IMG/VR virus record: IMGVR_UViG_3300037258_000549
Location: 1 to 64,000 of that record
Source of the DNA: a virus
Lineage: Duplodnaviria; Heunggongvirae; Uroviricota; Caudoviricetes
Length of the DNA stretch: 64,000 nucleotides
Strand: one strand, 5' to 3'
Of this stretch, positions 1-54,264 are shown in pieces (position 1 is the first letter of the stretch; each line of letters starts with the position of its first letter). Both the position numbers and the translations under genes were made by a program. The notes under the pieces were generated by a model. It was not told the DNA's origin, searched no databases, and saw only the letters and a program-made list of their open reading frames with translations.

Positions 1-1320
1 AGGGCAGGCGGGACTGGGACCGGGGCGGAAAGTCGGTGTGGAACGGGCTGGGCAGGGGCGGGTCGGCCAGGCAAGTCGGTGTGAGATGGGTTGATTGGAG
101 GCGATCAGGGCTGGCAAGTCGGTATGGTGCGGCCAGGAACGTGATGGGTCGAGACGTCGGTGTGGGTCGGGACGAAGCGGTACGGGGTGGGTAGTCGGCC
201 TGGGGCGGGTCGGCTGGGTCTGGGCGGGGCTGGATGGTGTAGTCGTACGGGCTGGCTCGGATTGGGCTGGGTAGGGCAGGTAAGTCGGGGTGGTGCGGAC
301 GGGAACGGAATGGTAAGTCGGCGCGGGCTGGTTCGGTGCGTGATGATCCGGGAAGTCGGTAGGGGCCGGGCGGGGTAGGGGCGGATCGGGGTGGCTTGTC
401 GGTATGGAACGGACGGGGCAGGTATGGCAAGTCAGTACGGGGCGGGGCGGACCGGGGTGGCTTGTCGGCAGCGGCCAGGCAGGGGCGTTTCGGCTCGTCG
501 GTGTGGGGTGGGTTGGGCTGGGTTGGGTGGTCGGGGCCGGTTGGCTTGTCGGCAGGAGGGGGCTGGTGTGGTGCGGCTTGTCGGCTCGGCGCGGACCTGG
601 GGTGACGTGGTTCGCTTGGGATGGCTCGGCTAGTCGGGCAGGTGGGGGTCGGACGGGGGTGGCGTGGCTCGTCGGGGAGGTGAGGCTTGCTGCGGGCCGG
701 GCTGGCGTGGCGAGTCACGGGTGCGGACGGGTTTGGGTTGGTAAGTCGGTGCGGGCAGGTGAGGCACGAGGTGGCCTGTCGGCTTGGCCTGGGGCGGCGC
801 GTGATGGACGGGCGTGTCGGCCTGGGCTGGAGTGTAATGGACTGGCGCGTCGGCGGGGGCCGGGTAGGGGTGGGTCGAGACGGTTCGTCGACGTGGGAAG
901 GAGTGAAGCGGTGTGGGCGGGACAGAGCTGGGTGGTCGGTGTGGCCTGGCGGGGGCTGAGGCGGGTTGGGCTGTGAAGGATAGTCGGTACGGTGCGGTTC
1001 GGGCTGGAGCGGGTTGTCGGTGTGGCCTGGCGGGGGCTGAGGCGGGTTGGGCTGTGAAGGGTAGTCGGTGCGGGCAGGTGAGGCACGGGGTGGCATGAGA
1101 AGTCGGTACGGTGCGGTTCGGAAAGGGAGGACAAGTCGGCGGGGGAGGGATCGGGCAGTCTCGGCTCGTCGGGGAGGGGTGAGCGGGCCGGGTTTGGCTG
1201 GTGATGACAAGTTGGTGCGGGCCGGATTTGGCTGGGGTGGGATGGCCGGATGCGTCGGGTAAGCCGGACAGGTGCTGGGATGTCGGCGCGGGGAGGGCCA
1301 GGAGAAGTCGATGAGGTTTG
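1..1320. repeat. Block B1 of degenerate RGTCGGYRCGG repeats (G-rich on + strand); runs off the left edge of the window
   Basis: Dozens of GTCGG(T/C)(A/G)CGG motifs separated by GGG-rich, A/T-poor spacers. No consistent reading frame. Confidence 0.8.
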
Positions 1321-1426
1321 TGTAGCCGCCCTGATGCGGCGTAGCGGTAGCACTAGACCGTATGATACCTTCTGCTCCAGCGACCGCAAATTAGCTGTAA
1401 GGCAACAGTTGCACCCTCTCCTGCGG

Positions 1427-1462: not shown

Positions 1463-2173
1463 ATGACACCATCGAGTGAGCGCGATTACCTGGACGAAGT
1501 GGCCGAGGAGGTCGCTAAGTACCTCGACGGCCACGATCACGTTATCTCAGCGGAGGCAGCCAGTGAGCTGATCGCCCGCTGGGAGGCGGAAAACCCCGGC
1601 CTGCTGATCGGCTGGCTGCGCGTCCGGGCACAGCAGGTGCTGAAGGATTACATTTACACGGTCACCCTGAGCCGGGGCGCCCGCCGCCGCGGGGAAGAGC
1701 AACGCGGCCGGTTCGCCAAGTTCGCCGATGGCTTCCACGACGCGCTGAATGAGGGAGCGGAGAAAGGGCGGGAGTTTTACCGCTACCACAGCGTGACGGA
1801 AGGAGCGCTGCTGATCAGGAAGCCACTCGGTGACCTGACCGCCAAGCAGGTCCAGGAGGTGCGTGACCGCTACCACCAGGCGGCCCGGGACAGCGGGTTC
1901 TACGCCCGGGTTTACGAGAAGGTCCGGCTGCGGGTAGTCGCAAAGGGGTCGGAGGCGGTCGTCGCTGACGTCTATACCCCGGAGCAGCTGGAGAACATGT
2001 TCAAGCGGGGGGACCGGTCGCCGCTGGTAGCGGAGGACCTCCGCGCGGCCTCCGATCGACAGCAGTCGTCGACAGGCGCCGGGGAAGCCGGGCCGCCGGC
2101 CGTTGGTGCCGGGGAAGCCGGGCCGCCGCAGCAAGACGCCGTAGCGGAAGTGCGCTTTCAGCCTGGGGTGTAA
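1463..2173 (+). CDS. Hypothetical protein
   Basis: RBS AAGGAGGGGA then ATG. GC3-rich coding. Contains an internal 30-bp tandem duplication (GAGEAGPP x2) at ~2078-2137. Confidence 0.6.
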   Translation: MTPSSERDYLDEVAEEVAKYLDGHDHVISAEAASELIARWEAENPGLLIGWLRVRAQQVLKDYIYTVTLSRGARRRGEEQRGRFAKFADGFHDALNEGAEKGREFYRYHSVTEGALLIRKPLGDLTAKQVQEVRDRYHQAARDSGFYARVYEKVRLRVVAKGSEAVVADVYTPEQLENMFKRGDRSPLVAEDLRAASDRQQSSTGAGEAGPPAVGAGEAGPPQQDAVAEVRFQPGV

Positions 2174-2257: not shown

Positions 2258-2980
2258 ATGAGCAGTGGAGTGTTCGAGAAGTACAGCAATGACGCCTTCC
2301 CGTACTGGTACGCGGGTGAGCTGAAGGTCGGGATTCTCGCCGGCGGCATCCCGCAGGACCCGAACGTCGTCGAGTCGTGGATTAAGACGAAGCTGCGCGA
2401 TATCCGCAGCGACGCCGAGATCCAGGAGGTCATCGCGACCACCATGGCCGAGCTGGGCCTGGACGAGGAAGAGGCGGTTAAGAAGGCGTCGACTCAGATG
2501 GTCGGCATGAACGGCTTCAAGCGGGACGAGACGGGCCTGCTAGTGGAAGGCCGCCAGCTGAAGGCGGCAATGAAGGAAGCGGTCATGGTCGCCGCTAACG
2601 CCGGTAAGATCGAGACCGGCAAATGGGGCTCACCGGACAACGCGTCCTACAAGAAGCAAATCAAAGGATGGTTTCCGGAGCATTTCTTTATTGTTCAGGA
2701 ATACCTGCATATCTTCCGTGACGGTGAGCCGGTCAAGATTCATGACGGCGTCACGCAAAAGTTTGTCCATACGCACCGCGGCGACTCGATCTCCTACGAG
2801 CAGTACGTCAAGGATGCCATCGTGCCCTTCACTTTGAAGTCTGACTTCGAATTGAAGGAGCAACAGTGGGCAATGATCTGGCTGACTGGTCAGATGCAGG
2901 GATTTGGTGCTTCTCGGTCCCAGGAGTACGGCCGGTACGAAATGACTCGCTGGGAGCAGATTGAGCCGCAAGGGAACTGA
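2258..2980 (+). CDS. Hypothetical protein
   Basis: RBS ACAGGAGAG then ATG. 240-aa ORF followed by an intrinsic terminator. Confidence 0.6.
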   Translation: MSSGVFEKYSNDAFPYWYAGELKVGILAGGIPQDPNVVESWIKTKLRDIRSDAEIQEVIATTMAELGLDEEEAVKKASTQMVGMNGFKRDETGLLVEGRQLKAAMKEAVMVAANAGKIETGKWGSPDNASYKKQIKGWFPEHFFIVQEYLHIFRDGEPVKIHDGVTQKFVHTHRGDSISYEQYVKDAIVPFTLKSDFELKEQQWAMIWLTGQMQGFGASRSQEYGRYEMTRWEQIEPQGN

Positions 2981-3005
2981 GTTTAATCGCCGGGAATACC
3001 AAGCA

Positions 3006-3041
3006 GGCCGCGTCACCGGAATTCGGTGGCGCGGCCTTTTT
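3006..3041 (+). terminator. Rho-independent terminator
   Basis: GGCCGCGTCACCG-GAAT-TCGGTGGCGCGGCC, a 13-bp GC-rich stem, followed by TTTTT. Confidence 0.7.
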
Positions 3042-3840
3042 GCGTGGTAAGGGCGGGCTGGAGGTGGTCCGGTTAGTCGGCGTGGGACGGACAGGGCAGG
3101 CACGTCGGTACGGAGCGGTTAGTCGGCGTGGCCAGGGTGGGCGGGGGATGGTCCGGTTAGTCGGCGGGGAACGGAGGGGCGGCCTGGGTAGTCGTCGACA
3201 GGGAATGGCATGTCGGCGTGTGCTGGCCGGGGCAGGTTTGGCTTGGCACGTCGGTACGGGGTGGGACGGCTCGTAATGAGGTGGGCGGGCTTGTCGGGCG
3301 GGTCGGAAACGGGTCGGGATGCGGTGGGATGGCTTGTCGGCGGGGGCTGGGACGGGCCGATAAGGGCAGGCATGGGAAGGCCAGTCGGCGGGGGCCAGGG
3401 ATGGCAGGGGTAGTCACCGGGGTGGGCGGGGGTTGGGAGGAGCTGTCGACGGAGAGGGTCGTCCTGGATTGGGTCGGCCAGTCGGAGTGGGCAGGCACGG
3501 GGCGGACTGTGGCGGTTGGGTACGTCGGTGCGGGGCGGTGGGGTTCGGCATGGTCGGTCGGCGCAGGCAGGCACGGGGCGGACGGTCGGCGCGGGCGGGT
3601 ACGGACAGGACCGGCGAGGCTTGTCGGCAGGGGCCGGGGCGGAACGACTGGTGATGGGTTGTCGATGCGGGCTGGGGCGGATCGGAATGGTCAGTCGGCA
3701 AGGAATGGCGGGGCCAGGGACGGGAGGAGTAGTCGGCGGGGCTGGGACGGGCGGGAACGGGTCGGGATGCGGTGGGATGGCTTGTCGGGGCGGTCAGGGG
3801 CGGGTCGGGCTGTAAAGGAGTGGATCGTCGGTCAAAGCTT
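3042..3840. repeat. Block B2 of RGTCGGYRCGG repeats (G-rich on + strand)
   Basis: Same motif family as B1. Starts immediately after the terminator and ends in the conserved boundary followed by the 3910 motif. Confidence 0.8.
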
Positions 3841-3909
3841 GGTTTGGTTTGGTTAGCCGTCACATTCAGGCGTCATTTTTAAAGTATCATGAACGCTGGC
3901 GTATTGGAG

Positions 3910-8473: not shown

Positions 8474-8487
8474 CCCGGGAAAAAGAC

Positions 8488-8517: not shown

Positions 8518-8552
8518 TGGTCTTGCTTAAGAGAGGCCTCCGGTCGGGCAAC

Positions 8553-9042: not shown

Positions 9043-9461
9043 GGGCCGGAATCGGTCGGTTACCCTTCAAACAGCACACTCGGTCGGTGTACCCACGCCC
9101 GCTAGCCCATAATTACATAGGAAGCCTGGCGGGCCGGACGAGGATCGGTTATCGATGGTTCGACTCCACCTGCTGGTGTCACAGCTGGCAAAGCCCGATG
9201 GCGGGCACTGCTCTCGTTTAGACGGGAGTTTTCCCCGGTACTCAAGGACCCATGCCTGCCAGGCTTCACCGTAGTGTCGGCCTCTTCAATAAGTCCTTCG
9301 CACGGCGGAGTGCACCCAACCGGGAGGCCGATGGTTAAGGGGCACACGACGGCTCGCGGGCCGGATAACGGTCGGTTATCTCCCTTTCAACAGAGAACAC
9401 AACCCGGCAGTCGGTTACACGCCCGCGAGCCTTCTTTTACGCCACATCAGACAGGATCATC

Positions 9462-9809
9462 ATGAGTGACTGCACTCCCCGGCGGCGCTACGCCGAGCGG
9501 GAGGCGGCCGAGCAAGCTAAGGCTGCAGCTGTGGAGGCAGCCCGGTGGAAGGACCCGTTTACCCCGCTGGAACGATGGTTCTCCCGGCTGCCGAATACCT
9601 TTCTGGAAGAGAAGTGCCATTGCGGGTCGGGTAAGCCGCTCCTGTACTGGTCGCCGGAGGATGGCGACGGCTGCAAGGATTGCGCTGGGTCACTGCATGT
9701 ATATATTCCTGAAGCAGTGATGTACAACGTAATGGATAAGTTTGGTATTACCGGGGACGTCCGGGCGCAGGTTTATGCTCAGATCGAGAAGTCGCGAGAG
9801 GAGAGGTAG
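9462..9809 (+). CDS. Cys-rich hypothetical protein
   Basis: RBS and ATG. CHCGSG...CKDC motif. Confidence 0.5.
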   Translation: MSDCTPRRRYAEREAAEQAKAAAVEAARWKDPFTPLERWFSRLPNTFLEEKCHCGSGKPLLYWSPEDGDGCKDCAGSLHVYIPEAVMYNVMDKFGITGDVRAQVYAQIEKSREER

Positions 9810-9810
9810 C

Positions 9811-13274: not shown

Positions 13275-13805
13275 AAGCGGGAAGTCCGGTCGCATTAGGC
13301 GTGCGGCCGGGCTTTCGGCTTGTCTAGGCTTGGGATGTCGGCACGGGAAGGGAGGGGTAGAGGCGGGTGGGGATGGCCAGTCGGCGCGGGACGGAGGGGT
13401 GTGGGATGAGTCGGATCGTCGGTACGAGGCGGGCGGGCGTGGGCCGTGTCGTCGTCAGGGTGCGGGCAGGCTCGGGCGGGCCAGTCGGGGTGATTCGGGC
13501 CGGACTGGCGTGGCTTGTCGAAGTGGCTCGGCCTGGTGCGAGACGGGCCGGGTAGTCGGCGCGGGAGGTGACGGGAGGAGACGGGAGGGTGGGAGAAGTC
13601 GGTACGGGGTAGGGAAGGACTGAGCTGGGTCGGCGTGACCAGTCGGGGTGGAGAGGGATGGCCCGGTACGTGATGGACTGTCGGCTTGACTTGGTCAGGG
13701 TCGGCGTGGGGGGATTCGTCGGTACGGATCGGAGCAGGCCGGGGTGTAGGGGCAGACTGGTCAATGTGGAAAGGCTAGGTCCGGGTAGCCACCCTGGTGT
13801 GGCGT
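13275..13805. repeat. Block B3 of RGTCGGYRCGG repeats (G-rich on + strand), with the conserved boundary TAGCCACCCTGGTGTGGCGTG at its right end
   Basis: At least 13 GTCGG motifs. The right boundary is the reverse complement of the ACGCCACACGAGGGTGGCTA leader of the inverted blocks C1/C2. Confidence 0.8.
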
Positions 13806-13833: not shown

Positions 13834-14592
13834 TTACCGGATGCTCGACAGCTGTTTTCGCACTTGAAGTCCGAGAAATGAAGTCATGTACGGTGGCAGT
13901 GCTTCGGCGATATCTTCCCGGTTGCTCATCCAGGTAATATCCATCGCCTCGCGGACTGGTTCTTTTCGTTCGTGCCCGCCGACGCTGACGTACATGCCTG
14001 GCTGCCAGTGGCCTGCCCTTGCTGCAGCGACAGGGTGACTCCAGCCACATTCCCGGTTTCGCTTGACGGCCTCTAGTTGCACGGGCGCGGTGAGGGTGAG
14101 ACCGTTCCCGGGTTCGAACAGCCGGTGCCGGTAGACCGGCCGGTTAAACATTTGCCCGCACAAGGTAGTGGGATCGCGTAGCCAGGGTCGAGCACCGGAT
14201 ACGTTTTCGATGATGTACGGCACTCCGGCAGGTAGCAGCAGCTCGCGTACCGGGTCAATGAGCGCTGGATAGGAGTCAGCCAGCCCGGGACGGCACCGGC
14301 TAAGCTGAGAATATGCTTGACATGGCGGGCTAACGTGGACAAAGTCAAAGTGCCGTATGAACGACCGGTCGGCGAGCACGTCCAGGATGTCAGCGCAGAT
14401 GAACTGCTCGGCGCCGGAGGACAGGTAGTCGGTTTCTAGTCGTGCGTTATTGTCCACGCCCCAGACGGCGAACCCGGCGTCCCGGTACCCGCGGGCCGCG
14501 CCGCCCGCGCCTGAGCAACCGTCAAGTACGGTCGGCGGGGATGACGAGGGCGGCCGGGACCCACTCCATCTGCTCATGCAGGGTCTGCACAT
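13834..14592 (-). CDS. C5-cytosine DNA methyltransferase
   Basis: Motif I (LDGCSGAGG), motif IV (HVSPPCQ) and motif VI (ENV). The start may be the internal Met (MSRW). Confidence 0.7.
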   Translation of the reverse strand: MCRPCMSRWSGSRPPSSSPPTVLDGCSGAGGAARGYRDAGFAVWGVDNNARLETDYLSSGAEQFICADILDVLADRSFIRHFDFVHVSPPCQAYSQLSRCRPGLADSYPALIDPVRELLLPAGVPYIIENVSGARPWLRDPTTLCGQMFNRPVYRHRLFEPGNGLTLTAPVQLEAVKRNRECGWSHPVAAARAGHWQPGMYVSVGGHERKEPVREAMDITWMSNREDIAEALPPYMTSFLGLQVRKQLSSIR

Positions 14593-16378: not shown

Positions 16379-16711
16379 GTGAATGACGAGTCAGGCGGAG
16401 ACCGGGTTCTCGAAGGACTGGTAGTAGATAACAGCGACGGTGATGACGAGGACCTGACGCTGGAAGAGTCGGTGCTAGTTGACCTGGCCGCGTTGCCGGT
16501 GAACATGCGCCGTGGCGGGGTGGCCGGGGTGGCGCTGATGTGCGCGAGGGCGTTGGATCAGGGGGGACTGCCCCCACGAGATGCCGCCGGGTTCGCCCGG
16601 GAGCTACGACTGTCGCTCGCTCAATTGCGGGAAATGGCGCCGGGCGAAGCTCGCGGGGACGTGACGGATGAAGTGAAGCAGCGGCGGGAAAAAAGATTGG
16701 CCGGTGAATGA
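16379..16711 (+). CDS. Acidic hypothetical protein
   Basis: GTG start (alternative TTG at 16370). Confidence 0.4.
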   Translation: MNDESGGDRVLEGLVVDNSDGDDEDLTLEESVLVDLAALPVNMRRGGVAGVALMCARALDQGGLPPRDAAGFARELRLSLAQLREMAPGEARGDVTDEVKQRREKRLAGE

Positions 16712-16741
16712 CGCGGCTGGTCAGCGGTACAGTCAAGTTTA

Positions 16742-16905
16742 ACGCCATATAAGGGTGGCTACGCAAGCCAGTCCTTCTCATGGTAACGGACCGTGCCAAT
16801 CCCAATCCGCCCCATCCGAGTTAGCCCAGCCCCTATCGCGCCGACCAGCCCTGCCTACACGCTCCCGCCCAACCCGGTCCGACGATCCCGTGCTATCCCA
16901 TCCGG
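16742..16905 (+). repeat. Block C1: inverted (C-rich, CCGAC) copy of the repeat element, with leader ACGCCATATAAGGGTGGCTACGCAAGCC
   Basis: TATAAG box then GGGTGGCTA then a CCGAC-rich tract. Same polarity as C2 and opposite to B1-B6. Confidence 0.6.
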
Positions 16906-16925
16906 AAAGTAATGGCAAAAGATCC

Positions 16926-17585
16926 GTGGAAATACGGCATTTCTATCACCTGTACCTCGACGGTGATGCGCCCTGGCGGGTGATCGCCGATGAGTACGCG
17001 GACGTCTTGCGGCTCGCGGGATTCCCGGTTGACCCGGTGGTGGGCCTGGTCGGTAAAGACCGCGGGGACGCGCGGTTGTGGGCAGCGGGCCGCCGGTGGG
17101 TAGTCGGTGCGGAAGCGGACACCGGGTTTGAGCAGGTAACCCTGGCCGTGCTGCAGGACCAGCTAGGGCAGCTGCCCGACGATACGGCGGTGCTGTACAC
17201 GCACAGTAAGGGGGCGATGCGGAACATGATCGCCGAGGACCAGTGGCGCCGGTCGATGCTCTGGCACCTGGTGTTCGGCTGGCAGCGGTGCGTGGAACTC
17301 CTGCAAGGGCACGATGTAGTGGGTTGTCACTGGCGGCATGGTAATCACTTCGCAGGGAACTTCTGGTGGGCGCGGGCGCGGTTCCTGCGAACCCTGCCGC
17401 TGGTGGATGCGGCGGAAGCTGACCGGTACTCCGCTGAGCTGTGGCTTGGCAGCGGGCGCCCGGGGCGGGTGGCCAACCTGGTGGAGGGCTTCCCTCCGGA
17501 CGGAACACGGGACGGGGCCATCTTGCTGTCAGAGCGGCTGCCGCGGAAATTTACCCGGCAGCGGCATATCTGGCCGCGCGGGTAA
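16926..17585 (+). CDS. Hypothetical protein, paralog of the 36768 gene
   Basis: GTG start. Shared motifs with the paralog: RH(F/Y)YH(L/I)Y-DG, Y(T/A)H(S/T)KGA, HD-VGCHW, AGNFWWA. The ORF track extends it upstream through the C-rich block (16755), which I consider unlikely. Confidence 0.5.
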   Translation: MEIRHFYHLYLDGDAPWRVIADEYADVLRLAGFPVDPVVGLVGKDRGDARLWAAGRRWVVGAEADTGFEQVTLAVLQDQLGQLPDDTAVLYTHSKGAMRNMIAEDQWRRSMLWHLVFGWQRCVELLQGHDVVGCHWRHGNHFAGNFWWARARFLRTLPLVDAAEADRYSAELWLGSGRPGRVANLVEGFPPDGTRDGAILLSERLPRKFTRQRHIWPRG

Positions 17586-17652
17586 TACTCTAGTAAGGAA
17601 AGCGCCCGGCCCCGCACGGGGAGCGGCTCAGCATCAAGTACATCGAGTTCTC

Positions 17653-19338
17653 GTGACCGCTGCTGAGTATCGTCTTCACGCTGTACCCGACGTTTTCCTG
17701 CCGGATGGCTCGGTGCTGCACGACTCACTTGTCGGCAGCCAGCGGCCCCGGTTCTGGACGGCCCCGCCGCGGCACCGGGATAAGCAGCCCGGGTGCACGT
17801 CCTGCGCGAAAGACGGCTATCGAGCGGGCTGCGGCGATTACGCAGCTGAGGAGCTGCTCGACTGGTGCCCGTCTTACGGGTACGAGCTGGACTCGTGGCA
17901 GCAGTGGTGGCTGAGCGAGGCGTGCGGGGTGCGCCCGGATGGCCGGTGGGCTGCATTCGAGTGCGCAAACGTAGCGTCCCGGCAGAATGGAAAAAACGTT
18001 CTACTGGAGGTTCGCGAGCTAGGCGGACTGTTCGTGTTCGGCGAGTCGATGATTATTCATACCGCCCATGAGTTCAAGGCGGCGGCCGAGCATTTCCGCC
18101 GGGTACGGGACACCATCACCGCTTACGATGACTTGTCGCGCCGGGTAAAGCGGATCATGACCAGCCACGGTGACGAGGCTATCGAGCTGCGCCCGGCACC
18201 CACGTTGATCTTCGGCGCCGGGGGCAAGCGGGTGCGCCGCAATATCGGTGGCCGACTGCGCTTCCTGGCCCGCTCCCGCGGCTCTGGGCGCTCGTTTACC
18301 GCTGACCTTGTTGTTTACGACGAGTCGATGTTCTTGTCGGATGAGCAGGTGGGCGCGTCTATGCCGACCATGTCCGCGGTGGCTAACCCGCAGATGATTT
18401 ACACGGCGTCAGCCGGCTACCACGACTCGGTGCAGCTGGCCATGGTGCGCCGTCGGATGCTGCGGCATGACCAGTCGCTGATGGGCGCGGAGTGGAGCAT
18501 CGACCCGCATACTGACCTGTGCCCCCGCGATGAGGTTCTCGGCCGGAAAACTAACCGGTACGTCATCTGCGACCGGCACGACGACCGCGATGACCCGCGC
18601 TCGTGGGCGAAGGCTAACCCGGCGTTCGGCACCCGGATCTCCTATGAGCACGTGCAGAAAGAGTTCAAGTCCATGTCGGCTGCCGCGTTCGACCGGGAGC
18701 GGCTGGGCGTCGGGGACTGGCCCGAGGAGGAGGAAAGCTGGACAGTCATCTCCGAGGAAAGCTGGGAGCGGTGCGCGCTGCCTGACCCGGGCGGCGCCGT
18801 GCGCCCGCTGGCCTTTGCCGTAGACGTGGACCCGCAAATGCGCTACTCCACCATTTCGGCGGCGTGGCAGCGGCCTGAGCTAGTCGGCGGGCCGCCGCGT
18901 ACCGTGCTGGAAATTCCACGCGGCTGCTCGAAAGAGGGGACCGGCTGGGTTATCCAGCGGCTGGTGGAGCTGCGGAGGCAATGGCGCCCGATCGCAGTGT
19001 GCTTCCCCAAGAACGGCCCCGCGGCTGGACTCGCTGACCAGGCTGAAAATGCCGGGCTAGAGGTCGTGCGTGCGAGCAGCGGGGATGAAGCTGAGGCGTT
19101 TTCACAGATGATTACCGCAATTAAAAGCAGGACGATCATCCACCTGGGTAAAGAGCAAGCCCCCGCACTCTGGAGCGCTATCGCCAGCGCAGAAACTAGG
19201 GTGGTGGGAGACGGCGGGCAGGCCTGGTCACGGAAGGATTCCGAAAGCGATATCACGCCTATCGTTGCGGCGACCCTGGCTAACTGGGCGCTGGGAAAGA
19301 AGCGCAGAAATTATGACCCCCGGAAATCCGTAGGTTAG
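17653..19338 (+). CDS. Terminase large subunit
   Basis: Conserved terminase ATPase/nuclease architecture (...LVVYDESMF..., ...IYTASAGYHD...). The N-terminal ~100 codons of the ORF look non-coding, so the start is placed at the in-frame GTG at 17653 (uncertain). Confidence 0.75.
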   Translation: MTAAEYRLHAVPDVFLPDGSVLHDSLVGSQRPRFWTAPPRHRDKQPGCTSCAKDGYRAGCGDYAAEELLDWCPSYGYELDSWQQWWLSEACGVRPDGRWAAFECANVASRQNGKNVLLEVRELGGLFVFGESMIIHTAHEFKAAAEHFRRVRDTITAYDDLSRRVKRIMTSHGDEAIELRPAPTLIFGAGGKRVRRNIGGRLRFLARSRGSGRSFTADLVVYDESMFLSDEQVGASMPTMSAVANPQMIYTASAGYHDSVQLAMVRRRMLRHDQSLMGAEWSIDPHTDLCPRDEVLGRKTNRYVICDRHDDRDDPRSWAKANPAFGTRISYEHVQKEFKSMSAAAFDRERLGVGDWPEEEESWTVISEESWERCALPDPGGAVRPLAFAVDVDPQMRYSTISAAWQRPELVGGPPRTVLEIPRGCSKEGTGWVIQRLVELRRQWRPIAVCFPKNGPAAGLADQAENAGLEVVRASSGDEAEAFSQMITAIKSRTIIHLGKEQAPALWSAIASAETRVVGDGGQAWSRKDSESDITPIVAATLANWALGKKRRNYDPRKSVG

Positions 19339-19342
19339 GGGG

Positions 19343-19905
19343 TATAATCGAGTCTGACGCCACACGAGGGTGGCTAGGCAAACCATCCCGGTACTGACGG
19401 GTCATTCCAGATCACCCCCACCCGGACCACCCCGACGTACCCGCCCTCCTCCGGCCCCATCTACTCCGCGCCCTACCGCGCCGACTTCTCACGCCTGCGC
19501 ATCCCAGCCCCGGCCCGTCCGACAAGCCACGCCTGATCAAGCCAACCCATGCCGACGTACCAGGCCTGTCCCAGCCAATCCGTCCCGGCCGACGTCCCAT
19601 CTCGGCCCTTGCCCAGCCATCCCTCGCCGACCAGCCCGGTCACGCCTGTCCTTGCCACACCCGGTCGACGTTCCATACCAGGCCGTTCCACTCCGACTGG
19701 CCATCCCGAGTCCAGCCGCCCCAAGTCACGCCGACAGCTCACAGCACGCCGTTCCCAGCCAGTCCGCACCGACGAACCAGGCCAGTCCCCCTCCTCCCGT
19801 CCCGGGCCGACGGTCCCTCCCAGTTCTTTCCGGTCCCTCCCATTCCTGCCCGACAAGCCACCCCATCCCACGTCCTCCCACCCCAGCTGACGGGCCACTT
19901 CACGA
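19343..19905 (+). repeat. Block C2: inverted (C-rich) copy of the repeat element, with perfect TATAAT and leader ACGCCACACGAGGGTGGCTAGGCAAACC
   Basis: GGGGGTATAATCGAGTCTG then the leader, then a ~530-bp CCGAC-rich tract. Lies just after the terminase stop. Confidence 0.7.
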
Positions 19906-20065
19906 CAGGAGCCGACGAACGAGCAGGAATAAGCTGTTGCTGGCGGGCATCGTGGTGTTCCTGGTTTTCGTTTTCCAGGACCCGGTGGGTACCGCGCACG
20001 CGCTGTCAACGGCCTGGCACCGCATCGTGGTGTTCATTGACAACGTGTGACACTAAGCTGGCGTC

Positions 20066-20362
20066 ATGGCTACTACGTCACCGCCGGTCACCCGGGCGGA
20101 TATCCCGGCCATCACCGATGACGTCCTGGCACGCGCCCGCTCGGTACGGCCTTCTCGTGTCCTGCTCACGGTGCTGGGAGCGATCGGCACGGTGCTCGGC
20201 TGGGTGCCCGGCCGGGCGTTTGTTGCCATTGGCTGGCTGGCCGGGCGCAGTTTCCTGATCGGCGCATTCTTCGTCGAGGCGGTCATTTACGGGTTCCGTC
20301 AAGGCGCGATGCTCGGGCCGAGGCAGCCAGAACAGCCGCCTAAGCCGCCAGAGTCTCGTTAA
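20066..20362 (+). CDS. Small membrane protein
   Basis: ATG start. Two hydrophobic helices. Confidence 0.45.
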   Translation: MATTSPPVTRADIPAITDDVLARARSVRPSRVLLTVLGAIGTVLGWVPGRAFVAIGWLAGRSFLIGAFFVEAVIYGFRQGAMLGPRQPEQPPKPPESR

Positions 20363-21240: not shown

Positions 21241-24219
21241 GTGGGCCTTATCGAACGTATAATGTCGGAGAGGCGTGCGGAGTCCAGAGCCCTGGGAGGC
21301 GTACCTTGGAAACCTTGGGACGATCCCCGGTGGCGTTTTAGCCAAGGCGGGCCGATTCATCCGACCCGCGCGATATACGGTACTGACAAAGCACTCGGCT
21401 TGCCCGCCTTGTACGCGTGCGTTCGGCTGATCGCTGACTCGACTGCTTCCCTGCCGCTGAAGATTTACACGACTGCTGGCTCGACGGGGCGCGGCGTTCG
21501 CTATGAGGGGCCGTCCATTTTCGATCAGCCTTCGGCGGATGGCACTATCTATGACTGGATTTTCCAGTGTATGACCTCGCTACTGCTGCATGGTAATGCC
21601 TGGGGACTGATTACCGGTCGCGACGGGTACGGCTTCCCGACCGGGATCGAGTGGCTGCCGCCGGACATGGTGGACGTGCAGGATGACCCGCAGCAGCCGT
21701 GGAATAAGATGCGCACCCGGGTGTTTGTATTCGGCCGTCAGATGGCTGACTGGCGCAATGAGTTGTTCCACGTTAAGGCGTTCTCACTACCCGGCCGGAC
21801 CGAGGGGATCTCGCCGCTGCGCGCGTTTGCGCTGACCATCCTTAACGGGATGGAGGCCGCCCGGTACGGCACCGACTGGTTCGCGGCCGGCGGCTTTCCA
21901 CCCGGCACCTTCCAAAACTGCGTTGACACTGAGACGGAGTTGCTAAGCCGCGACGGCTGGCTACGGTACGACCAGGTGAAACCCGGTACCGAGGCACTGA
22001 CGCTGAATACGGAAACAAGTCAGTCCGAATGGCAGCCGGTTAAGCGCGTGTACGTGAATGAGGGGCCGAACGAGGTCGTAGCGATGCGGAATCTTTCGCA
22101 CTCGTCGGTCTCCACGCCGAACCACCGCTGGCCCGCTGTAGCTCCCGGGGCAGCCGAAATTGCGTGGTACAGGACTTCGACGTTGCCTCTGGATGCGCAA
22201 CTGCTCATCAGTGAGACGGAGCGAACCGACAAGGTAGCTGACCTGGCTGTTAGGCAGGAGACGATTGACGGTCCGGTTTGGTGCCCGGTGACTGAGAATA
22301 AGACCTGGTTCGCCCGCCGGGATGGTACCTGCTATTTCACTGGCAATACCGAAATTGAGATTGATTCTACCGCCGCCGCCGAGATCCGTGAATCGCTAAC
22401 CACAGCCATTAGGAACAGGCAGCCGCTGGTTTACGGGCGGGACTGGGATTACAAGCCGGTTGTGGTGCCGCCGTCAGAGGCTCAATTTATCGAAAGCCTG
22501 CAACTTAATGCTACGCAAATTGCTGCCATTTACGGATTGCCCGCGGAAAGGGTTGGCGGCCTCAAGAGTTCGTCACTGACCTACTGCGCGGACGGTGAAA
22601 CGGAGATCCTGACCCGGCGTGGCTGGCTGCGTTATGACCAGGTGACGACCGCAGATACCTGCTTGGGCCTGGATATCAAAACGGGGCTGTCGCGGTGGCA
22701 GCGGGTTCAGGCGGTAAACGTCTTTGATGACGGCCCGTACGACGTGATCCGCCTGGAGAACAGTACGCACTCCTCGGTGACGACGCCGAACCACCGCTGG
22801 CCGATAATGCTGTCTGGCGTGACCCGGACTCGGGAGGGCTGGCAGTGGCGGACTACGGAGACGCTGCCCGCGGACGCCCGGATCTGCGCGGCGGCCCCGG
22901 TCGAAGCGCCTGAGCCGAAGTGGTCGGATGCGACGGTAGAGCTGGTGGCCTGGTTGTGGACAGAGGGCCATATCGATCCGTACGGAGGCGTGCAGCTAAC
23001 CCAGTCGCAGCGAGTTAATCCGGGGAACGTGGCGCGAATCCGGGCTGCACTGACTGAGATATTCGGCCCGGCGGCGGAGAAGTTGCATGTCCGGTCCCGG
23101 CCGTCGTGGCGGGAAGATTATCACGACGACCGTGGAATCGTTCAGTTTCGGTTGAATGCTTTGGCTGGAGCAGTACTAACGCAGCATGCACCCGGCAAGG
23201 TAGTGAGCACGGAGTTCCTGGCATCGCTGACCCGGGCGCAGCTGGAATTGTTTTACCAGGTGTCGATAGATGCGGACGGGTGGCGGCGGCTTAATGGCCG
23301 GGCGTCCAGCTTGGCACAGAAAGACCGTGCCCGCCTTGACGCGTTCCAGATCGCGTGCGCGCTGACCGGTCGCTCGGGAGTAGTGCGTCAGCTTCCCACA
23401 AGCGGCCAGTGGTATATGGCCGTGCAAGTCACATCCTGGCGTAAGCCAGCCGGTCACCCGGAGTACAAGAGCCGAGAAACGGTGCCGCTGGTCTGGTGCC
23501 CGACGACGCCGAGCGGGACGTGGTTCGCCCGGCGCAACGGGACCACGTACTTTACCGGAAATACTAATGTCGAGATGTCGGCGCTGCAGATCATTGAGGC
23601 GCTGCGCCCGTGGCTGGTCCGGCTGGAGACGGCGTTTTTCGCGTTGCTGCCAACCAGTCGTTACACCCGGTTCTACACCGACGCGCTGCTGAAGACCGAC
23701 CTGGCGTCCCGGGCGAACATTTACAAGATCTTCCGGGATGTCGGCATCCGCACTGTTGATGAGCTGCGCGAGCTGGAAGACCTGGAGCCGATGCCGAAAG
23801 GCGTGGGTTCGGAGGCGATTCCGCACGAGATCATGGTCCAGCTGGTCCGGGCTGGCGTGGTGCAGGGCGTGCCCACCTCGCTGCTGCCCGCGCTCACCCT
23901 GGACACTGACCTGCTCGTCCCGGTGCTGGAGAAGCTGCAGGCGCAGGGCCTGGCCGCGGCGGCCGTACCAGGTAAGGCGCCGGTGCAGGAAAGCCCGCAG
24001 GGCCAGGTTGGCATGTCTATCGACAAGCTGCGCGGCTTCGGGGACATCGATCCTGTTGACGTGGACCAGATGGTCGCCATCTTGCAGAAGGCAGCGCGTA
24101 AGCAGCGGCTGCGTGAGCAGCAGGCAAGCGGCCCGGATTACATCGGCCCGTGGATTCCGTCCGAGGAAGAGCTGGCCCGGCTGACCGCGGCCAATGGCAA
24201 CGGAAACGGCAGGCACTGA
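21241..24219 (+). CDS. Portal protein precursor with two inteins (mature exteins total ~523 aa)
   Basis: Portal-like N- and C-terminal exteins. The ORF is interrupted in-frame by two self-splicing elements (next two features). GTG start (alternative ATG at 21262). Confidence 0.8.
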   Translation: MGLIERIMSERRAESRALGGVPWKPWDDPRWRFSQGGPIHPTRAIYGTDKALGLPALYACVRLIADSTASLPLKIYTTAGSTGRGVRYEGPSIFDQPSADGTIYDWIFQCMTSLLLHGNAWGLITGRDGYGFPTGIEWLPPDMVDVQDDPQQPWNKMRTRVFVFGRQMADWRNELFHVKAFSLPGRTEGISPLRAFALTILNGMEAARYGTDWFAAGGFPPGTFQNCVDTETELLSRDGWLRYDQVKPGTEALTLNTETSQSEWQPVKRVYVNEGPNEVVAMRNLSHSSVSTPNHRWPAVAPGAAEIAWYRTSTLPLDAQLLISETERTDKVADLAVRQETIDGPVWCPVTENKTWFARRDGTCYFTGNTEIEIDSTAAAEIRESLTTAIRNRQPLVYGRDWDYKPVVVPPSEAQFIESLQLNATQIAAIYGLPAERVGGLKSSSLTYCADGETEILTRRGWLRYDQVTTADTCLGLDIKTGLSRWQRVQAVNVFDDGPYDVIRLENSTHSSVTTPNHRWPIMLSGVTRTREGWQWRTTETLPADARICAAAPVEAPEPKWSDATVELVAWLWTEGHIDPYGGVQLTQSQRVNPGNVARIRAALTEIFGPAAEKLHVRSRPSWREDYHDDRGIVQFRLNALAGAVLTQHAPGKVVSTEFLASLTRAQLELFYQVSIDADGWRRLNGRASSLAQKDRARLDAFQIACALTGRSGVVRQLPTSGQWYMAVQVTSWRKPAGHPEYKSRETVPLVWCPTTPSGTWFARRNGTTYFTGNTNVEMSALQIIEALRPWLVRLETAFFALLPTSRYTRFYTDALLKTDLASRANIYKIFRDVGIRTVDELRELEDLEPMPKGVGSEAIPHEIMVQLVRAGVVQGVPTSLLPALTLDTDLLVPVLEKLQAQGLAAAAVPGKAPVQESPQGQVGMSIDKLRGFGDIDPVDVDQMVAILQKAARKQRLREQQASGPDYIGPWIPSEEELARLTAANGNGNGRH
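21919..22347 (+). mobile_element. Mini-intein 1 in the portal (143 aa)
   Basis: Begins with Cys (CVDTETELLSRDGW). Block B TPNH. Ends in ...YFTGN followed by Thr (+1). Confidence 0.65.
22585..23562 (+). mobile_element. Intein 2 in the portal (326 aa), with a LAGLIDADG-type homing-endonuclease domain
   Basis: Begins with CADGETEILTRRGW. Block B TPNH. Internal LWTEGHIDPYGG and YQVSIDADGW (LAGLIDADG-like). Ends in ...YFTGN followed by Thr. Paralogous to intein 1. Confidence 0.65.
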
Positions 24220-27369: not shown

Positions 27370-27792
27370 ATGATCATCCAGATGATCTTGCAGATGTCCG
27401 GCGGCCGGTACGACGACCGCAGCTGGCCGCCACCTTGGACGGACTTTGAGGTGCCGGATGAGGAAGGCCGCGGGCTGATTGACAGCGGAGTAGCGGCCTG
27501 GGTAGCCGACCGGGCGGTTCCGGTTAAGCCCGCCCCGGTAACCAAGTCGGCCACTGAAACCGTCGCCCTGACGGCGAAAGCAGCCGGGTCGGCGACCGAG
27601 ACGACGGCACTGGCCGCGCAGCCTGCCGAGCCTGCCACCGCGGTAAAGCCAGTTACCCATGTTAACGTCCCGGTGCCCGCCGATCCGAAGGCCGCTTGGG
27701 TGGAGTACGCGGTCAGCCGGGGCGCGGCCCAGGCGGAGGCGGAAGCCATGACAAAAAGCCAGTTGCAAATCGCGTACGGTGGTCGGCTGTGA
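27370..27792 (+). CDS. Hypothetical protein (Ala/Pro-rich middle region)
   Basis: ATG start. GC3-rich. Confidence 0.45.
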   Translation: MIIQMILQMSGGRYDDRSWPPPWTDFEVPDEEGRGLIDSGVAAWVADRAVPVKPAPVTKSATETVALTAKAAGSATETTALAAQPAEPATAVKPVTHVNVPVPADPKAAWVEYAVSRGAAQAEAEAMTKSQLQIAYGGRL

Positions 27793-27870
27793 CGAGGCAG
27801 GGATTGTCGGTATGGGACGGTAAGTGAAGGTCAGGGCTGGGCAGGAGTGTCGGGATGGCCGGGTTAGCCG
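27790..27870. repeat. Mini-copy of the GTCGG repeat (2-3 units)
   Basis: GATTGTCGGTATGGGACGG ... GAGTGTCGGGATGG. Confidence 0.4.
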
Positions 27871-27954
27871 CCCTCATGTGGCGTAGATGGCTAATCGTAG
27901 CACCGGATTGCCGGTTGGCCGTTATCATCAAGTGACGAGAGAAGGCCGGTAAAA

Positions 27955-52414: not shown

Positions 52415-52890
52415 GGTTCGGGATGGCTGGTCGGTGCGGGCCGGGTAGTCGGTACGGGATGGGCCGGCGCGGGAGGGGTTGAACTGGCCAGTCGGTGGGG
52501 GTCGGGATGGCTGGTCGGTGCGGTCCGGGGGCGGGGCGGGATGGCTGGTCGAGGAGGAGCGGGCAGGAGTGAACTGGGCGGGTATGAGCTGTCGGTGCGG
52601 CTCGGCTCAGAGGGTCTGGTGGGGGTAGTCGGTCCGAGATGGGCAGGGTGGGGGCGGGTAGTCGGCGCGGGAGGGATGGACTGGGCCTGGCCTGTCGGTC
52701 CGGGACGGTTGGGGCTGGCAAGGTAAGTCGGTTCGCAACGGGCCGGGTGGGGGCGGGTAGTCGGCGCGGTCCGGAGCGGGCTGGCCTGGCATGTCGGCGC
52801 GGGAGGGATGGACTGGGGATGAGTTGTCGGTCCGTTATGGCAGGCCGTCAGAAGCGGGAAGGCCGGTATATCCGCCCTGGTTACGGAGTC
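52415..52890. repeat. Block B4 of RGTCGGYRCGG repeats with boundary CCGCCCTGGTTACGGAGTC
   Basis: Starts 1 nt after the 52414 stop. G-rich. Ends in the conserved boundary. Confidence 0.8.
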
Positions 52891-53975: not shown

Positions 53976-54264
53976 GAATTACTGGGCTGGCGCGACGGGA
54001 TGGCTGGTCGCCTGGGATGGGCCGGAGCGAGGCGGGTCGACTGGGGTCGTCGGCGCGGGAGGGAAGGGTTCGGGTAGCCGAGGGCCGGGACGTCGGCGCG
54101 GGCTGGGTGGAGATGGCGCGGGATGGCACGTCGTTTGGGATGGACCGGGGCGGGGCGGGCCGACTGGGGTAGTCGGTGCGGGCGGGTTAGGCGTGTGCAG
54201 TCGGTGCGGGTCCGGGGCGGGATGGGTTGGGTTGGGTAGTCGTATCCGCCCTGGTTACGGAGTC
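53976..54264. repeat. Block B5 of RGTCGGYRCGG repeats with boundary CCGCCCTGGTTACGGAGTC
   Basis: G-rich GTCGG tract. The boundary is nearly identical to that of B4. Confidence 0.8.

What the first reader, a model, noticed from the sequence alone, without database searches (positions are those of the whole stretch)
16742..19905. Two inverted copies of the element bracket the terminase gene, each led by a TATAAT-like box and an identical GGGTGGCTA(C/G)GCAA leader
- **C1 (16742-16905)** lies upstream of the paralog and terminase genes. **C2 (19343-19905)** lies immediately after the terminase stop at 19338.
- They are the only two copies in the C-rich orientation. Both begin with the same 17-nt leader.
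- In C2 a perfect TATAAT hexamer (19343-19348) sits 8 nt upstream of the leader.
- The ORF track calls GTG-initiated proline-rich ORFs starting exactly in the leader (MATQ... at 16755 and MARQ... at 19370, the latter ending in a TM-like tail). The two predicted proteins share only their first 4 residues, so the conservation is at the DNA level.

This looks like a promoter plus transcribed leader feeding a C-rich RNA. Alternatively, the two copies could be recombination or packaging-related landmarks around the terminase gene.
Basis: partly seen in the sequence, partly recalled or inferred. Interest (0 to 1): 0.7.

Follow-up and report, generated by a model that had tools for sequence, protein, structure and literature searches.

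The report
C-rich RNA arrays with Cas7-like partner
The two "inverted copies" around the terminase gene are 2 of 9 non-coding, cytosine-rich arrays with a strict 5-base rhythm in this phage. Eight of the nine carry a promoter-like box and a 5' hairpin, and they belong to a widespread, undescribed phage module whose constant neighbour is an orphan protein with the fold of the CRISPR backbone protein Cas7.

Summary
C1 (16742-16912) and C2 (19357-19905) are the only arrays that are C-rich on the + strand. They share a leader, and C2 has a perfect TATAAT 8 nt upstream.

The pair is not a terminase landmark. C1 is absent from all 6 close relatives; C2's position is kept in 5 of 6. Seven more arrays lie elsewhere in the window, and 7.2% of it is array.

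- **Pattern:** each array is (NNNCC)n punctuated by CCGACNNN octamers, giving units of 28/33/38/43/48 nt. The period is 5, not 3.
- **Coding:** stops occur in all three frames of orthologous arrays, so the arrays are non-coding.
- **Head:** eight arrays start with a TAnnnT box, 6-9 nt of spacer, then a hairpin (AC-GCCNN-loop-NNGGC-UA) with compensatory changes.

Best reading: the arrays are the RNA partner of an orphan Cas7-like protein. Rho-utilisation and DNA-level roles remain rivals. Nothing comparable was found in Rfam, Pfam or the literature searched.

The parts
16728..16733 (+). -10-like box TACAGT of C1, 8 nt before the leader
   Evidence: Read. It occupies the same position as the TATAAT of C2 and the TATACT of other heads.
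16742..16769 (+). C1 head: ACGCCATATAAGGGTGGCTACGCAAGCC, hairpin GCCAU/GUGGC
   Evidence: Covariance model R1 hit, 32.7 bits. Pair counts.
16742..16912 (+). C1: short C-rich pentamer array (about 3 units) that runs up to the glycosyltransferase-cluster paralog gene
   Evidence: C 0.41, G 0.21. CCGAC anchors lie 38 nt apart. Absent from 6 of 6 relatives.
16890..17585 (+). Gene behind C1 (start at 16890 or 16926, uncertain). It is a paralog of 36768-37406 and was inserted together with C1.
   Evidence: tblastn gives 38% identity to 36774-37394. No homolog lies between the TerS-like gene and TerL in relatives.
17653..19338 (+). Terminase large subunit
   Evidence: phrog_9, E 3.5e-67.
19343..19348 (+). 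-10 box TATAAT of C2
   Evidence: Relatives carry TATACT, TATAAT, TAGTCT or TATGAT at the same place.
19357..19384 (+). C2 head: ACGCCACACGAGGGTGGCTAGGCAAACC, hairpin GCCAC/GUGGC
   Evidence: R1 hit, 34.2 bits. Covariation.
19357..19905 (+). C2: C-rich pentamer array
   Evidence: C 0.48, G 0.21. Lag-5 autocorrelation 0.30. MFE -146 kcal/mol with z +0.66, against -229 for a coding control. The position is kept in 5 of 6 relatives.
20054..20362 (+). Next gene, with its own leaderless-type promoter (TAAGCT, 6 nt, then ATG at 20066)
   Evidence: Read. The homologs in L001, L002 and L003 show the same TAnnnT + 6-7 nt + ATG arrangement.
1..1342 (-). Array E1 (cut by the window start), head at 1315-1342
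1463..2173 (+). gA: all-helical protein that precedes gX in several lineages
2258..2980 (+). gX: orphan Cas7-like (Csm3/Cmr4-like) RAMP protein, the conserved companion of the arrays
3005..3042 (.). Hairpin plus T-run terminator between gX and the inverted array E2
   Evidence: Read. The same arrangement occurs in L225.
3040..3873 (-). Array E2, head at 3846-3873
13300..13805 (-). Array E3, head at 13778-13805. It follows the co-oriented DNA methyltransferase gene 13834-14592 (-).
27725..27884 (-). Small array E4, head at 27857-27884
52415..52889 (-). Array E6, head at 52861-52889
53985..54263 (-). Array E7, head at 54235-54263
56760..57075 (-). Array E8 (no recognisable head)

Best explanation
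C1 and C2 are two of nine copies of one non-coding element. Eight copies, including C1 and C2, are small transcription units.

**Anatomy of a copy**
1. A host-type -10 box (TAnnnT).
2. After 6-9 nt, a transcript that begins at or next to ACGCC and folds at once into a 4-5 bp hairpin (AC-GCCNN-loop-NNGGC-UA).
3. A G-poor, weakly structured C-rich tail built from NNNCC pentamers. These are grouped into units by CCGACNNN octamers, so unit length is 8 + 5n nt.

**Proposed role**
The RNA is the ligand or scaffold of the phage's own Cas7-like RAMP protein gX (2258-2980). gX would coat the RNA with one subunit per pentamer, reading the CC step, much as Csm3/Cmr4/Cas7 coat a crRNA made of an 8-nt handle plus 6n nt.

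**Evolution**
In most lineages the arrays are part of the gX mRNA, as its 5' leader and/or 3' trailer. In this phage's clade they were inverted, acquired their own promoters and spread to other intergenic sites. One of those sites is behind TerL (C2). Another is in front of an inserted gene (C1).

**Shown:** the anatomy, the period, the non-coding nature, the hairpin covariation, the conservation of the -10 box, the array-gX adjacency, and the RAMP fold of the gX model.

**Inferred:** transcription, gX binding to the array, one subunit per pentamer, and the biological purpose of the ribonucleoprotein. That purpose could be anti-CRISPR decoy, RNA protection or sequestration, or regulation of early genes.
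For: - **Period and units:** lag-5 and lag-10 C autocorrelation is 0.2-0.3, with no lag-3 signal. The unit logo shows the second C at 0.88-0.98. Anchor spacings are 28/33/38/43/48 nt.
- **Non-coding:** stops occur in all frames of the orthologous arrays in L001, L003, L004 and L006. The GTG start is not conserved.
- **Promoter box:** TAnnnT lies 6-9 nt upstream of 14 of 18 heads, against 0.0048 per position expected. It is oriented toward the C-rich side.
- **Hairpin:** 87-95% of cells are paired, 3 pairs show compensatory changes, and 0 of 500 shuffles reach this level. Other lineages carry new stems such as GCCGC/GCGGC, GCCGU/ACGGC, GCCGG/CCGGC and GCCAG/CUGGC.
- **Low structure:**
- **Spread:** more than 115 IMG/VR stretches match the pattern, giving about 100 arrays of 150-3010 nt.
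- **Array-gX link:** gX homologs abut a sense-strand C-rich array in at least 28 of 35 array-selected loci and in 9 of 9 protein-selected contigs.
- **Operon form:** gA-array-SD-gX-array-terminator in L181 and L211.
- **gX fold:**
- **gX family size:** 863 clusters at 50% identity.
- **No known RNA family:**
Against: - There is no expression or binding data of any kind.
- The period is 5, whereas Cas7-family backbones are known to hold RNA in 6-nt steps and without sequence preference (established knowledge).
- The RAMP assignment rests on a predicted model at about 10% identity. Sequence profiles hit no Cas family.
- The position matching the catalytic Asp of Csm3/Cmr4 is variable in the family.
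- Adjacency could equally mean that the array is only a cis-regulatory leader of gX.
- In the window only 2 of 9 arrays are near gX, and those two are inverted.
- Many lineages lack the head. In some lineages the head follows a stop codon with no -10 box.
- No -35 element is found.
Confidence: 0.45

Rival explanations
1. **Rho-utilisation super-sites.** The C-rich, G-poor, unstructured, untranslated RNA with a YC step every 5 nt is an ideal loading platform for termination factor Rho. The arrays would then act in one of three ways: as Rho-dependent terminators or insulators between transcription units, as attenuating leaders (for gX elsewhere, for the gene behind C1 here), or, when made from their own promoters, as decoys that titrate Rho.
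For: - C>G skew of -0.3 to -0.5 and weak folding.
- The first position of each CC is C or T and the second is C at 0.88-0.98. This matches the 5'-YC pocket of Rho.
- Rut sites are defined only by C>G bias, low structure and a length of 60-90 nt. Each Rho subunit holds 5 nt, separated by linkers of 4-5 nt (PMC12360218).
- The arrays sit exactly between genes, and most are co-oriented with the upstream gene (38 of 51).
- C2 and E3 start right after a stop codon.
Against: - Known rut sites need no strict periodicity and no octamer punctuation.
- Arrays of 1-3 kb are far longer than a terminator needs.
- A terminator does not need its own promoter and 5' hairpin.
- This reading does not explain the constant pairing with gX.
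- Intrinsic terminators already follow some arrays.
Confidence: 0.2
2. **Anti-CRISPR decoy.** gX is a viral Cas7 homolog and the arrays mimic crRNA-like units (8-nt handle plus body). Together they would draw host type III or type I subunits into dead complexes.
For: - Orphan viral cas genes can act as anti-CRISPRs by building defective complexes (bioRxiv 10.1101/2023.06.24.545427).
- Phage RNAs that mimic CRISPR repeats sequester Cas6 and Cas7 (PMC10651486).
- gX has the Cas7 fold.
- Unit length of 8 + 5n parallels the crRNA length of 8 + 6n.
Against: - gX is only about 10% identical to any solved Cas7 and is invisible to Cas profiles, which is poor for co-assembly with host subunits.
- The family is conserved across contigs of GC 0.50-0.75, so it is not tuned to one host system.
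- The arrays do not resemble a CRISPR repeat.
- Outside this clade gX sits in replication and recombination modules, not in acr clusters.
Confidence: 0.1
3. **DNA-level element.** The G-rich strand (GGNNN)n forms G-quadruplexes, or is read like Chi or a telomere repeat. Its polarity is set relative to the genome ends or the packaging start near terminase.
For: - The polarity switches between E3 (13.8 kb) and C1 (16.7 kb), around the TerS-like and TerL genes. The same switch is seen in L003, L004 and L006.
- On either side of that point the G-rich strand runs 5'->3' toward it.
- (GGNNN)n fits a two-tetrad G4 motif (sequence).
Against: - E3's polarity is explained simply by the co-oriented methyltransferase gene in front of it.
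- The polarity always follows the -10 box and hairpin, which are single-strand features with compensatory changes.
- In other lineages the arrays lie inside operons between an SD sequence and a terminator, on the sense strand.
- C1 is not conserved, and more distant TerL relatives have no array.
- The genome ends are not known.
Confidence: 0.1
4. **Proline-rich proteins.** The GTG ORFs 16755-17585 and 19370-20050 are translated, the second ending in a membrane anchor.
For: - Both ORFs are open and in frame with downstream coding sequence.
- Stop codons are somewhat rarer than composition predicts.
Against: - Period 5, with no period 3.
- Unit lengths differ by 5 nt.
- The GTG is GCG in E1, E6 and E7.
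- There are stops in all three frames in L001, L003, L004 and L006.
- The TM tail is absent after the arrays of L001, L003 and L006, where the next gene has its own promoter.
- No protein-family hit.
- The paralog of the gene behind C1 starts near the residue that matches 16926.
Confidence: 0.03

Closest known systems
Class 1 CRISPR effector backbone: Csm3/Cmr4/Cas7 filament on a crRNA
   Different: There is no repeat-spacer structure and no other cas genes. The step is 5 nt, not 6. Each step has a conserved CC, whereas Cas7 binding is sequence-independent. There is no sequence-profile similarity to Cas7. The Asp at the cleavage-site position is not conserved. The arrays are dispersed over the genome with their own promoters.
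Type IV-B Csf ribonucleoprotein (Cas7-like Csf2 + Cas11 on non-CRISPR RNA), PMC7937560
   Different: Type IV-B assembles on heterogeneous cellular RNA of regular length. Here a dedicated, sequence-periodic RNA is encoded beside the gene. No Cas11 could be recognised: gA is helical but its fold is unresolved.
RNA anti-CRISPRs (Racr, solitary repeat units), PMC10651486, and orphan viral cas genes acting as Acrs, bioRxiv 10.1101/2023.06.24.545427
   Same: Both are phage-encoded non-coding RNAs, or Cas homologs without a full system, that engage Cas7-type proteins.
   Different: Racrs copy the host's CRISPR repeat, and these arrays resemble no repeat. Known viral cas genes are recognisable by sequence, and gX is not. 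No acr neighbourhood is seen here.
Rho utilisation (rut) sites, e.g. lambda tR1 with its boxB hairpin between rutA and rutB
   Same: C>G bias, low structure, YC dinucleotides, untranslated RNA (PMC12360218). A small hairpin lies next to the C-rich tract (lambda nutR/tR1, from established knowledge).
   Different: Rut sites are 60-90 nt long and have no fixed period or punctuation. These arrays are 0.15-3 kb with a strict 5-nt rhythm and a conserved protein companion.
TRAP-binding (G/U)AG repeats in the Bacillus trp leader
   Same: A short conserved motif recurs every about 5 nt in single-stranded RNA and is read by identical subunits of an oligomeric protein (established knowledge; a lead, not tested here).
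   Different: TRAP uses 11 repeats for one ring. Here there are tens to hundreds of steps, a different motif and a different protein fold.

Membership tests
CRISPR array | Near-identical direct repeats of 23-50 nt alternating with unique spacers of similar length | tested here: not met
   Only a 5-nt anchor (CCGAC) and the CC steps recur. Units are 28-48 nt with no repeat/spacer division. Tandem Repeats Finder sees only weak 33-43 nt periods.
Cas7 / RAMP superfamily (for gX, 2258-2980) | RRM-like RAMP fold with a glycine-rich loop | tested here: met
Cas7 / RAMP superfamily (for gX) | Match to a Cas7-family sequence profile | tested here: not met
   Pfam, NCBIfam, PADLOC and PDB-sequence searches give no Cas hit.
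Cas7 / RAMP superfamily (for gX) | Helical filament on RNA with a fixed number of nt per subunit | not testable with these tools
   Only indirect evidence: the 5-nt rhythm of the neighbouring arrays.
Csm3/Cmr4 target-RNA nucleases | Conserved catalytic Asp in the loop after strand 1 | tested here: inconclusive
   The GG(I/V/T)PxD position reads D/N/R/S across the family. The equivalence of positions was judged by eye, not by superposition.
Rho-dependent terminator / rut site | C>G skew, weak secondary structure, untranslated RNA | tested here: met
Rho-dependent terminator / rut site | Rho-dependent 3' ends or Rho ATPase activation | not testable with these tools
   No data.
Bacterial sigma-A/sigma-70 promoter | -10 hexamer TAnnnT 6-8 nt before the start site | tested here: met
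   Found at 14 of 18 heads, against about 2.4% expected per head.
Bacterial sigma-A/sigma-70 promoter | -35 hexamer at 16-18 nt | tested here: not met
   The two-hexamer scan finds none at any head. Actinobacterial promoters often lack a -35 element (established knowledge).
Bacterial sigma-A/sigma-70 promoter | Mapped transcription start | not testable with these tools
   No RNA data.
Protein-coding gene (proline-rich ORFs) | 3-nt periodicity and an ORF conserved in relatives | tested here: not met
Phage packaging site (cos/pac) or terminase-flanking landmark | Conserved position next to the terminase genes in relatives | tested here: not met
   C1 is absent from 6 of 6 relatives. The C2 position is kept only in relatives with TerL identity of 79% or more, and is lost at 64-72%.
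Any Rfam family | Covariance-model match | tested here: not met
   No hit at the gathering threshold in the window and none at E <= 1 in 16650-20100.

The most novel reading that the evidence does not exclude
A CRISPR-independent ribonucleoprotein system is widespread in soil-type phages. In it, an orphan, highly diverged Cas7-like protein polymerises on genome-encoded, sequence-periodic C-rich RNAs, with one subunit per NNNCC pentamer and CCGACNNN octamers plus a 5' hairpin setting phase and ends. These RNAs have become autonomous, promoter-driven, multi-copy genes in this phage. This would be the first Cas7-type filament with a sequence-specific register, and a new class of phage non-coding RNA taking up about 7% of a genome.
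Probability: 0.4. Interest if true: 0.9.

Novelty: new variant of a known kind. Interest (0 to 1): 0.8.

Why it matters
- **Scale:** the phage spends 7.2% of this window, and other phages up to 3 kb in one block, on strictly patterned non-coding sequence. No database or paper searched describes it.
- **Protein partner:** the only constant partner is an unannotated protein family. It comprises 863 clusters at 50% identity, and its predicted fold is that of the CRISPR effector backbone.
- **If the pairing is functional:** RAMP/Cas7 filaments would have a life outside CRISPR immunity. It would also be the first case where such a filament reads sequence, and it would give a directly testable RNA-protein pair.
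- **For annotation:** the long "proline-rich" and "glycine-rich" ORFs called across these arrays in many phage genomes are artefacts.
- **Alternative value:** if the arrays turn out instead to be Rho platforms, they would be the most extreme natural rut sites known, and a handle on Rho in Actinobacteria.

Tried and rejected
- **Known phages:** megablast and blastn of the region and of C2 against 50,697 phage records gave no match.
- **Rfam:** nothing at the gathering threshold or at E <= 1.
- **Sigma-70 two-hexamer scan:** no promoter at the heads and no U-tract terminators at most array ends.
- **Genome scan with the TerL profile:** only relatives at 52% identity or less, none with arrays, so the host stays unknown.
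- **Metagenome scan with the TerL profile:** relatives at 64-72% lack the array. This dates the C2 insertion but adds no copies.
- **tblastx of the distant array-bearing contig L085 against the window:** only TerL is shared; the rest is noise.
- **Alignment of orthologous array bodies:** identity of 0.67-0.73 against 0.66-0.69 for shuffles. No conserved "spacer-like" content exists, so position-wise substitution rates could not be compared.
- **Anti-Shine-Dalgarno mimic idea:** CCTCC is not favoured (31 occurrences in 4.4 kb), and the phage itself uses SD sequences.
- **Source contig:** the attempt to fetch the window's source contig through the identical gA protein returned only a 2.3-kb fragment.
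- **Literature:** searches for C-rich, G-rich or periodic phage arrays, Rho sponges and phage Cas7-like proteins found no description of this element.
- **Crude flank-gene orientation calls:** these are approximate. Two cases were visibly miscalled, so only the trend is used.


Full report
**1. What the window is**

It is a high-GC (about 63%) tailed phage. Recognised genes include:
- TerL at 17653-19338 (phrog_9, E 3.5e-67) and portal at 21241-24219;
- a DNA methyltransferase on the minus strand at 13834-14592;
- a Ro60 ortholog at 9742-11481.

No record in 50,697 GenBank phages matches at the DNA level. TerL is at most 36.5% identical to those of Rhodococcus, Arthrobacter and Mycobacterium phages.

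**2. Checking the observation**

- The TerL stop is at 19338 and TATAAT lies at 19343-19348.
- Eight nt later comes ACGCCACACGAGGGTGGCTAGGCAAACC (19357-19384), followed by about 520 nt with C 0.48 and G 0.21.
- C1 starts with ACGCCATATAAGGGTGGCTACGCAAGCC (16742-16769), followed by about 140 nt with C 0.41.
- A skew scan finds only these two arrays C-rich on the + strand. Seven are G-rich on it: 1-1342, 3040-3873, 13300-13805, 27725-27884, 52415-52889, 53985-54263 and 56760-57075. Together the nine make 4632 nt, or 7.2% of the window.
- The two GTG ORFs exist.

Three details need correcting:
- C1's TATAAG lies inside the leader. The box at the equivalent position is TACAGT (16728-16733), 8 nt before ACGCC.
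- The leader is not private to C1 and C2.
- The "bracketing" is not conserved (section 5).

**3. Anatomy of the arrays**

In the C-rich orientation, C occupancy is strongly periodic. Autocorrelation is 0.21-0.30 at lag 5 and 0.13-0.24 at lag 10, with nothing at lag 3. A coding control shows none.

Anchoring 97 units on CCGAC gives a clean logo:
- CC recurs every 5 nt on both sides of the anchor.
- The second C is at 0.88-0.98. The first is C, or less often T.
- The three positions between CC steps are almost free.
- The anchor itself is an 8-nt step (CCGACNNN).

Anchor spacings are therefore 28, 33, 38, 43 and 48 nt, that is 8 + 5n. The arrays are not a CRISPR-like repeat-spacer structure.

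As RNA, C2 folds to only -146 kcal/mol over 559 nt (z +0.66 against shuffles). A coding segment of the same length folds to -229.

**4. Coding or not**

The arrays are not coding, for these reasons:
- The rhythm is 5, not 3, and units differ by 5 nt.
- The orthologous arrays behind TerL in L001, L003, L004 and L006 have stops in all three frames.
- The membrane-like tail of ORF 19370-20050 is absent in L001, L003 and L006. There the array is followed directly by the next gene, which has its own TAnnnT + 6-7 nt + ATG (leaderless-type) promoter. The window shows the same arrangement: TAAGCT at 20054-20059 and ATG at 20066.
- The protein behind C1 aligns with its paralog (36768-37406) only from about residue 16926 onward.

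**5. Relatives: is the pair a terminase landmark?**

Six IMG/VR contigs encode TerL at 76-87% best-segment tblastn identity (79-84% in the full-length alignment).
- Five of them have a C-rich array starting a few bases after the TerL stop, with a -10 box and the head. The sixth has ordinary genes there.
- None has C1. In L001 and L006 the TerS-like gene abuts TerL. In the others, unrelated small genes fill the gap.
- C1 plus the gene behind it is therefore a recent insertion.
- TerL relatives at 64-72% identity lack the array altogether, and relatives at 52% or less in sequenced genomes have none.
- Orthologous arrays are alignable only over the head and the next about 45 nt. The bodies are no more similar than shuffles: 0.67-0.73 against 0.66-0.69. 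L001 and L006 differ by one 33-nt unit.

So the pattern is maintained, not the sequence.

**6. The head**

Written in the C-rich orientation, eight of the nine arrays in the window begin the same way. A TAnnnT box (TATACT, TATAAT, TACAGT, TATCAT, TACGAT or TAAAAT) is followed by 6-9 nt, then ACGCC, a variable 6-10 nt, GGCTA and the array.
- Counting paralogs and orthologs, 14 of 18 heads have the box at that distance. TAnnnT occurs at 0.0048 per position in the window.
- On the opposite strand the same sites mostly read TATAGC or TATACC, so the box points into the C-rich direction.
- The two-hexamer sigma-70 scan sees no -35. That is common in Actinobacteria (established knowledge).
- ACGCC...GGCTA is a hairpin. 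Its stems are GCCAC/GUGGC; GCCGC/GCGGC in E1; UCCG/CGGA in E6 and E7; and GCUGU/GCAGC in L002.
- On 17 W-clade sequences, 87% of cells pair, three of five pairs show double changes, and no shuffle of 500 reaches the observed score.
- With other lineages added (GCCGU/ACGGC, GCCGG/CCGGC), 95% pair and 0 of 500 shuffles reach the score. Slid registers drop to 6-61% (for the sequences).
- A covariance model places a head at the 5' end of eight arrays in the window.

A hairpin starting 2-3 nt from the 5' end would also stabilise the RNA (inference).

**7. The element is widespread**

The same pattern gives 21 hits in the window, all in arrays and all in the right orientation.

These stretches hold about 100 period-5 C-rich arrays of 150-3010 nt, in contigs of GC 0.50-0.75. 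One example is a 3-kb array between a terminator and the next gene in L204. In this wider set the arrays are mostly C-rich on the sense strand of the flanking genes (crude gene calls, so only the trend is used).

**8. The constant neighbour**

Some foreign heads follow the stop codon of a gene homologous to window 2258-2980, here called gX.

- **Array-selected loci.** tblastn found gX homologs (25-47% identity) in 35 loci that had been fetched by the array pattern alone. In at least 28 of them a C-rich array abuts gX within about 110 nt on gX's sense strand, upstream, downstream or both.
- **Typical operon.** The order is gA (homolog of window 1463-2173), array, SD-gX, array, intrinsic terminator (L181 and L211).
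- **Protein-selected contigs.** Nine contigs were chosen through gX homologs only. They include one from an Actinomadura assembly and two very distant family members. All nine carry a period-5 array next to gX. Lag-5 autocorrelation is 0.15-0.34, lag 6 is about 0 and lag 3 is negative.
- **The window's own clade.** In W, L003, L015 and L225 the arrays beside gA-gX are inverted, are separated from gX by a terminator (3005-3042), and have their own -10 boxes.

**9. What gX is**

- No Pfam, NCBIfam, PADLOC or PDB-sequence match was found.
- The family has 197 or more members at 90% clustering, and 863 clusters at 50% identity.
- An AlphaFold2 model built from 38 sequences has pLDDT 84 and pTM 0.75.
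- The conserved C-terminal GxGASRSQGYGRY resembles a RAMP glycine-rich loop (my reading).
- The Asp position of the Csm3/Cmr4 active site is not conserved.
- gA is all-helical, but its model is poor and its fold is unresolved.
- Outside this clade, gX sits among replication and recombination genes.

**10. Mechanism**

My best explanation (confidence 0.45) is that the arrays are the RNA partner of gX. It has three parts:
- A Cas7-like protein coats the C-rich RNA with one subunit per pentamer.
- The octamers and the head set phase and ends. This echoes crRNAs, which have an 8-nt handle plus 6-nt steps.
- In this phage the arrays became independent, promoter-driven genes and multiplied, with C2 and C1 being two such copies.

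Transcription, binding and purpose are all inferred.

The main rival (0.2) is that the arrays are extreme Rho-utilisation sites. They meet every sequence criterion of a rut site (PMC12360218). However, their strict rhythm, their length, their own promoters and their gX partner are not needed for that role.

An anti-CRISPR decoy role (0.1) and a DNA-level polarity element (0.1) are not excluded. Translation into proline-rich proteins is very unlikely (0.03).

**11. Known or new**

Nothing in Rfam or in six full-text literature searches describes these arrays or this protein family. The nearest known things are:
- the class 1 CRISPR backbone;
- the type IV-B Cas7-like filament on non-CRISPR RNA (PMC7937560);
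- RNA anti-CRISPRs (PMC10651486);
- orphan viral cas genes (bioRxiv 10.1101/2023.06.24.545427).

I file the element as a new variant of that kind, not as a member. It fails the CRISPR-array definition and the sequence-profile test for Cas7, and it has a different step length.

**12. Verdict**

The terminase "bracket" is a by-product of two dispersed copies. The element behind it is unusual and testable. Interest is 0.8.

Noticed in passing
window 8723-8824 and 9742-11481: A tRNA-like module (Rfam tRNA, 30.2 bits) overlaps a sub-threshold YrlA (Y RNA-like) match (29.4 bits, gathering score 69). It lies about 900 nt upstream of a Ro60 ortholog (TROVE + Ro60 vWA domains). This is probably a phage Ro60/Y-RNA module. 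Ro60 is also present in relatives L001 and L006 (77-78% identity).
   Followed up: partly
window 57799-58200 (-), 58961-59035 (-), 60038-60110 (-): An RF-1-domain (peptidyl-tRNA hydrolase/ArfB-like) protein lies next to a tRNA with anticodon CUA (called tRNA-Pyl by ARAGORN, i.e. an amber-reading tRNA) and a tRNA-Ile(GAU).
   Followed up: no
window 47672-51330 and 51746-52282: There are very long in-frame tandem repeats (60/66/72-nt units, 30 or more copies) in the tail-fibre-like genes, and a 276-nt duplication at 85-86% identity just before array E6.
   Followed up: no
window 21241-24219: The portal ORF is unusually long (992 aa). Portal matches cover the two ends, and a middle segment (aa 447-571) weakly hits a thymidylate-synthase PHROG. 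This may be an insertion or an intein. Relatives align in separate pieces.
   Followed up: no
L006 8378-11035: The TerL of this relative is split by an insertion of about 700 nt (tblastn pieces 8378-9307 and 10001-11035). It may be an intein or a homing element.
   Followed up: no
window 20054-20066; L001 4960-4985; L002 4455-4472; L003 7585-7603: The gene after the post-TerL array has a TAnnnT box 6-7 nt before its ATG in four phages. This is a leaderless-mRNA arrangement.
   Followed up: partly
L204 (reverse strand) 1081-4090; L085 (reverse strand) 18150-18900: One contig holds a single 3-kb array anchored on TCGAC instead of CCGAC. A distant phage (TerL 36% identical) has an NNGCC pentamer array without the octamer anchor, preceded by GATAAT + 6 nt + ACGCC.
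   Followed up: partly
window 35873-39005 and 16890-17585: This is a glycosylation-type gene cluster (an ORF whose translation reads like an NAD-dependent epimerase, by eye only, plus ORFs I took to be glycosyltransferases; none was scanned against a family library). One of its genes (36768-37406) has a 38%-identical paralog inserted, together with C1, between the TerS-like gene and TerL.
   Followed up: partly
window 62723-62887: An inverted repeat has 31-nt arms (90% complementary) 103 nt apart, in the minus-strand early region.
   Followed up: no
L230 3500-3600: In a distant gX-bearing contig, a tRNA-like sequence appears to sit between the gX stop and the downstream array. This was read by eye and not checked with a tRNA finder.
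   Followed up: no
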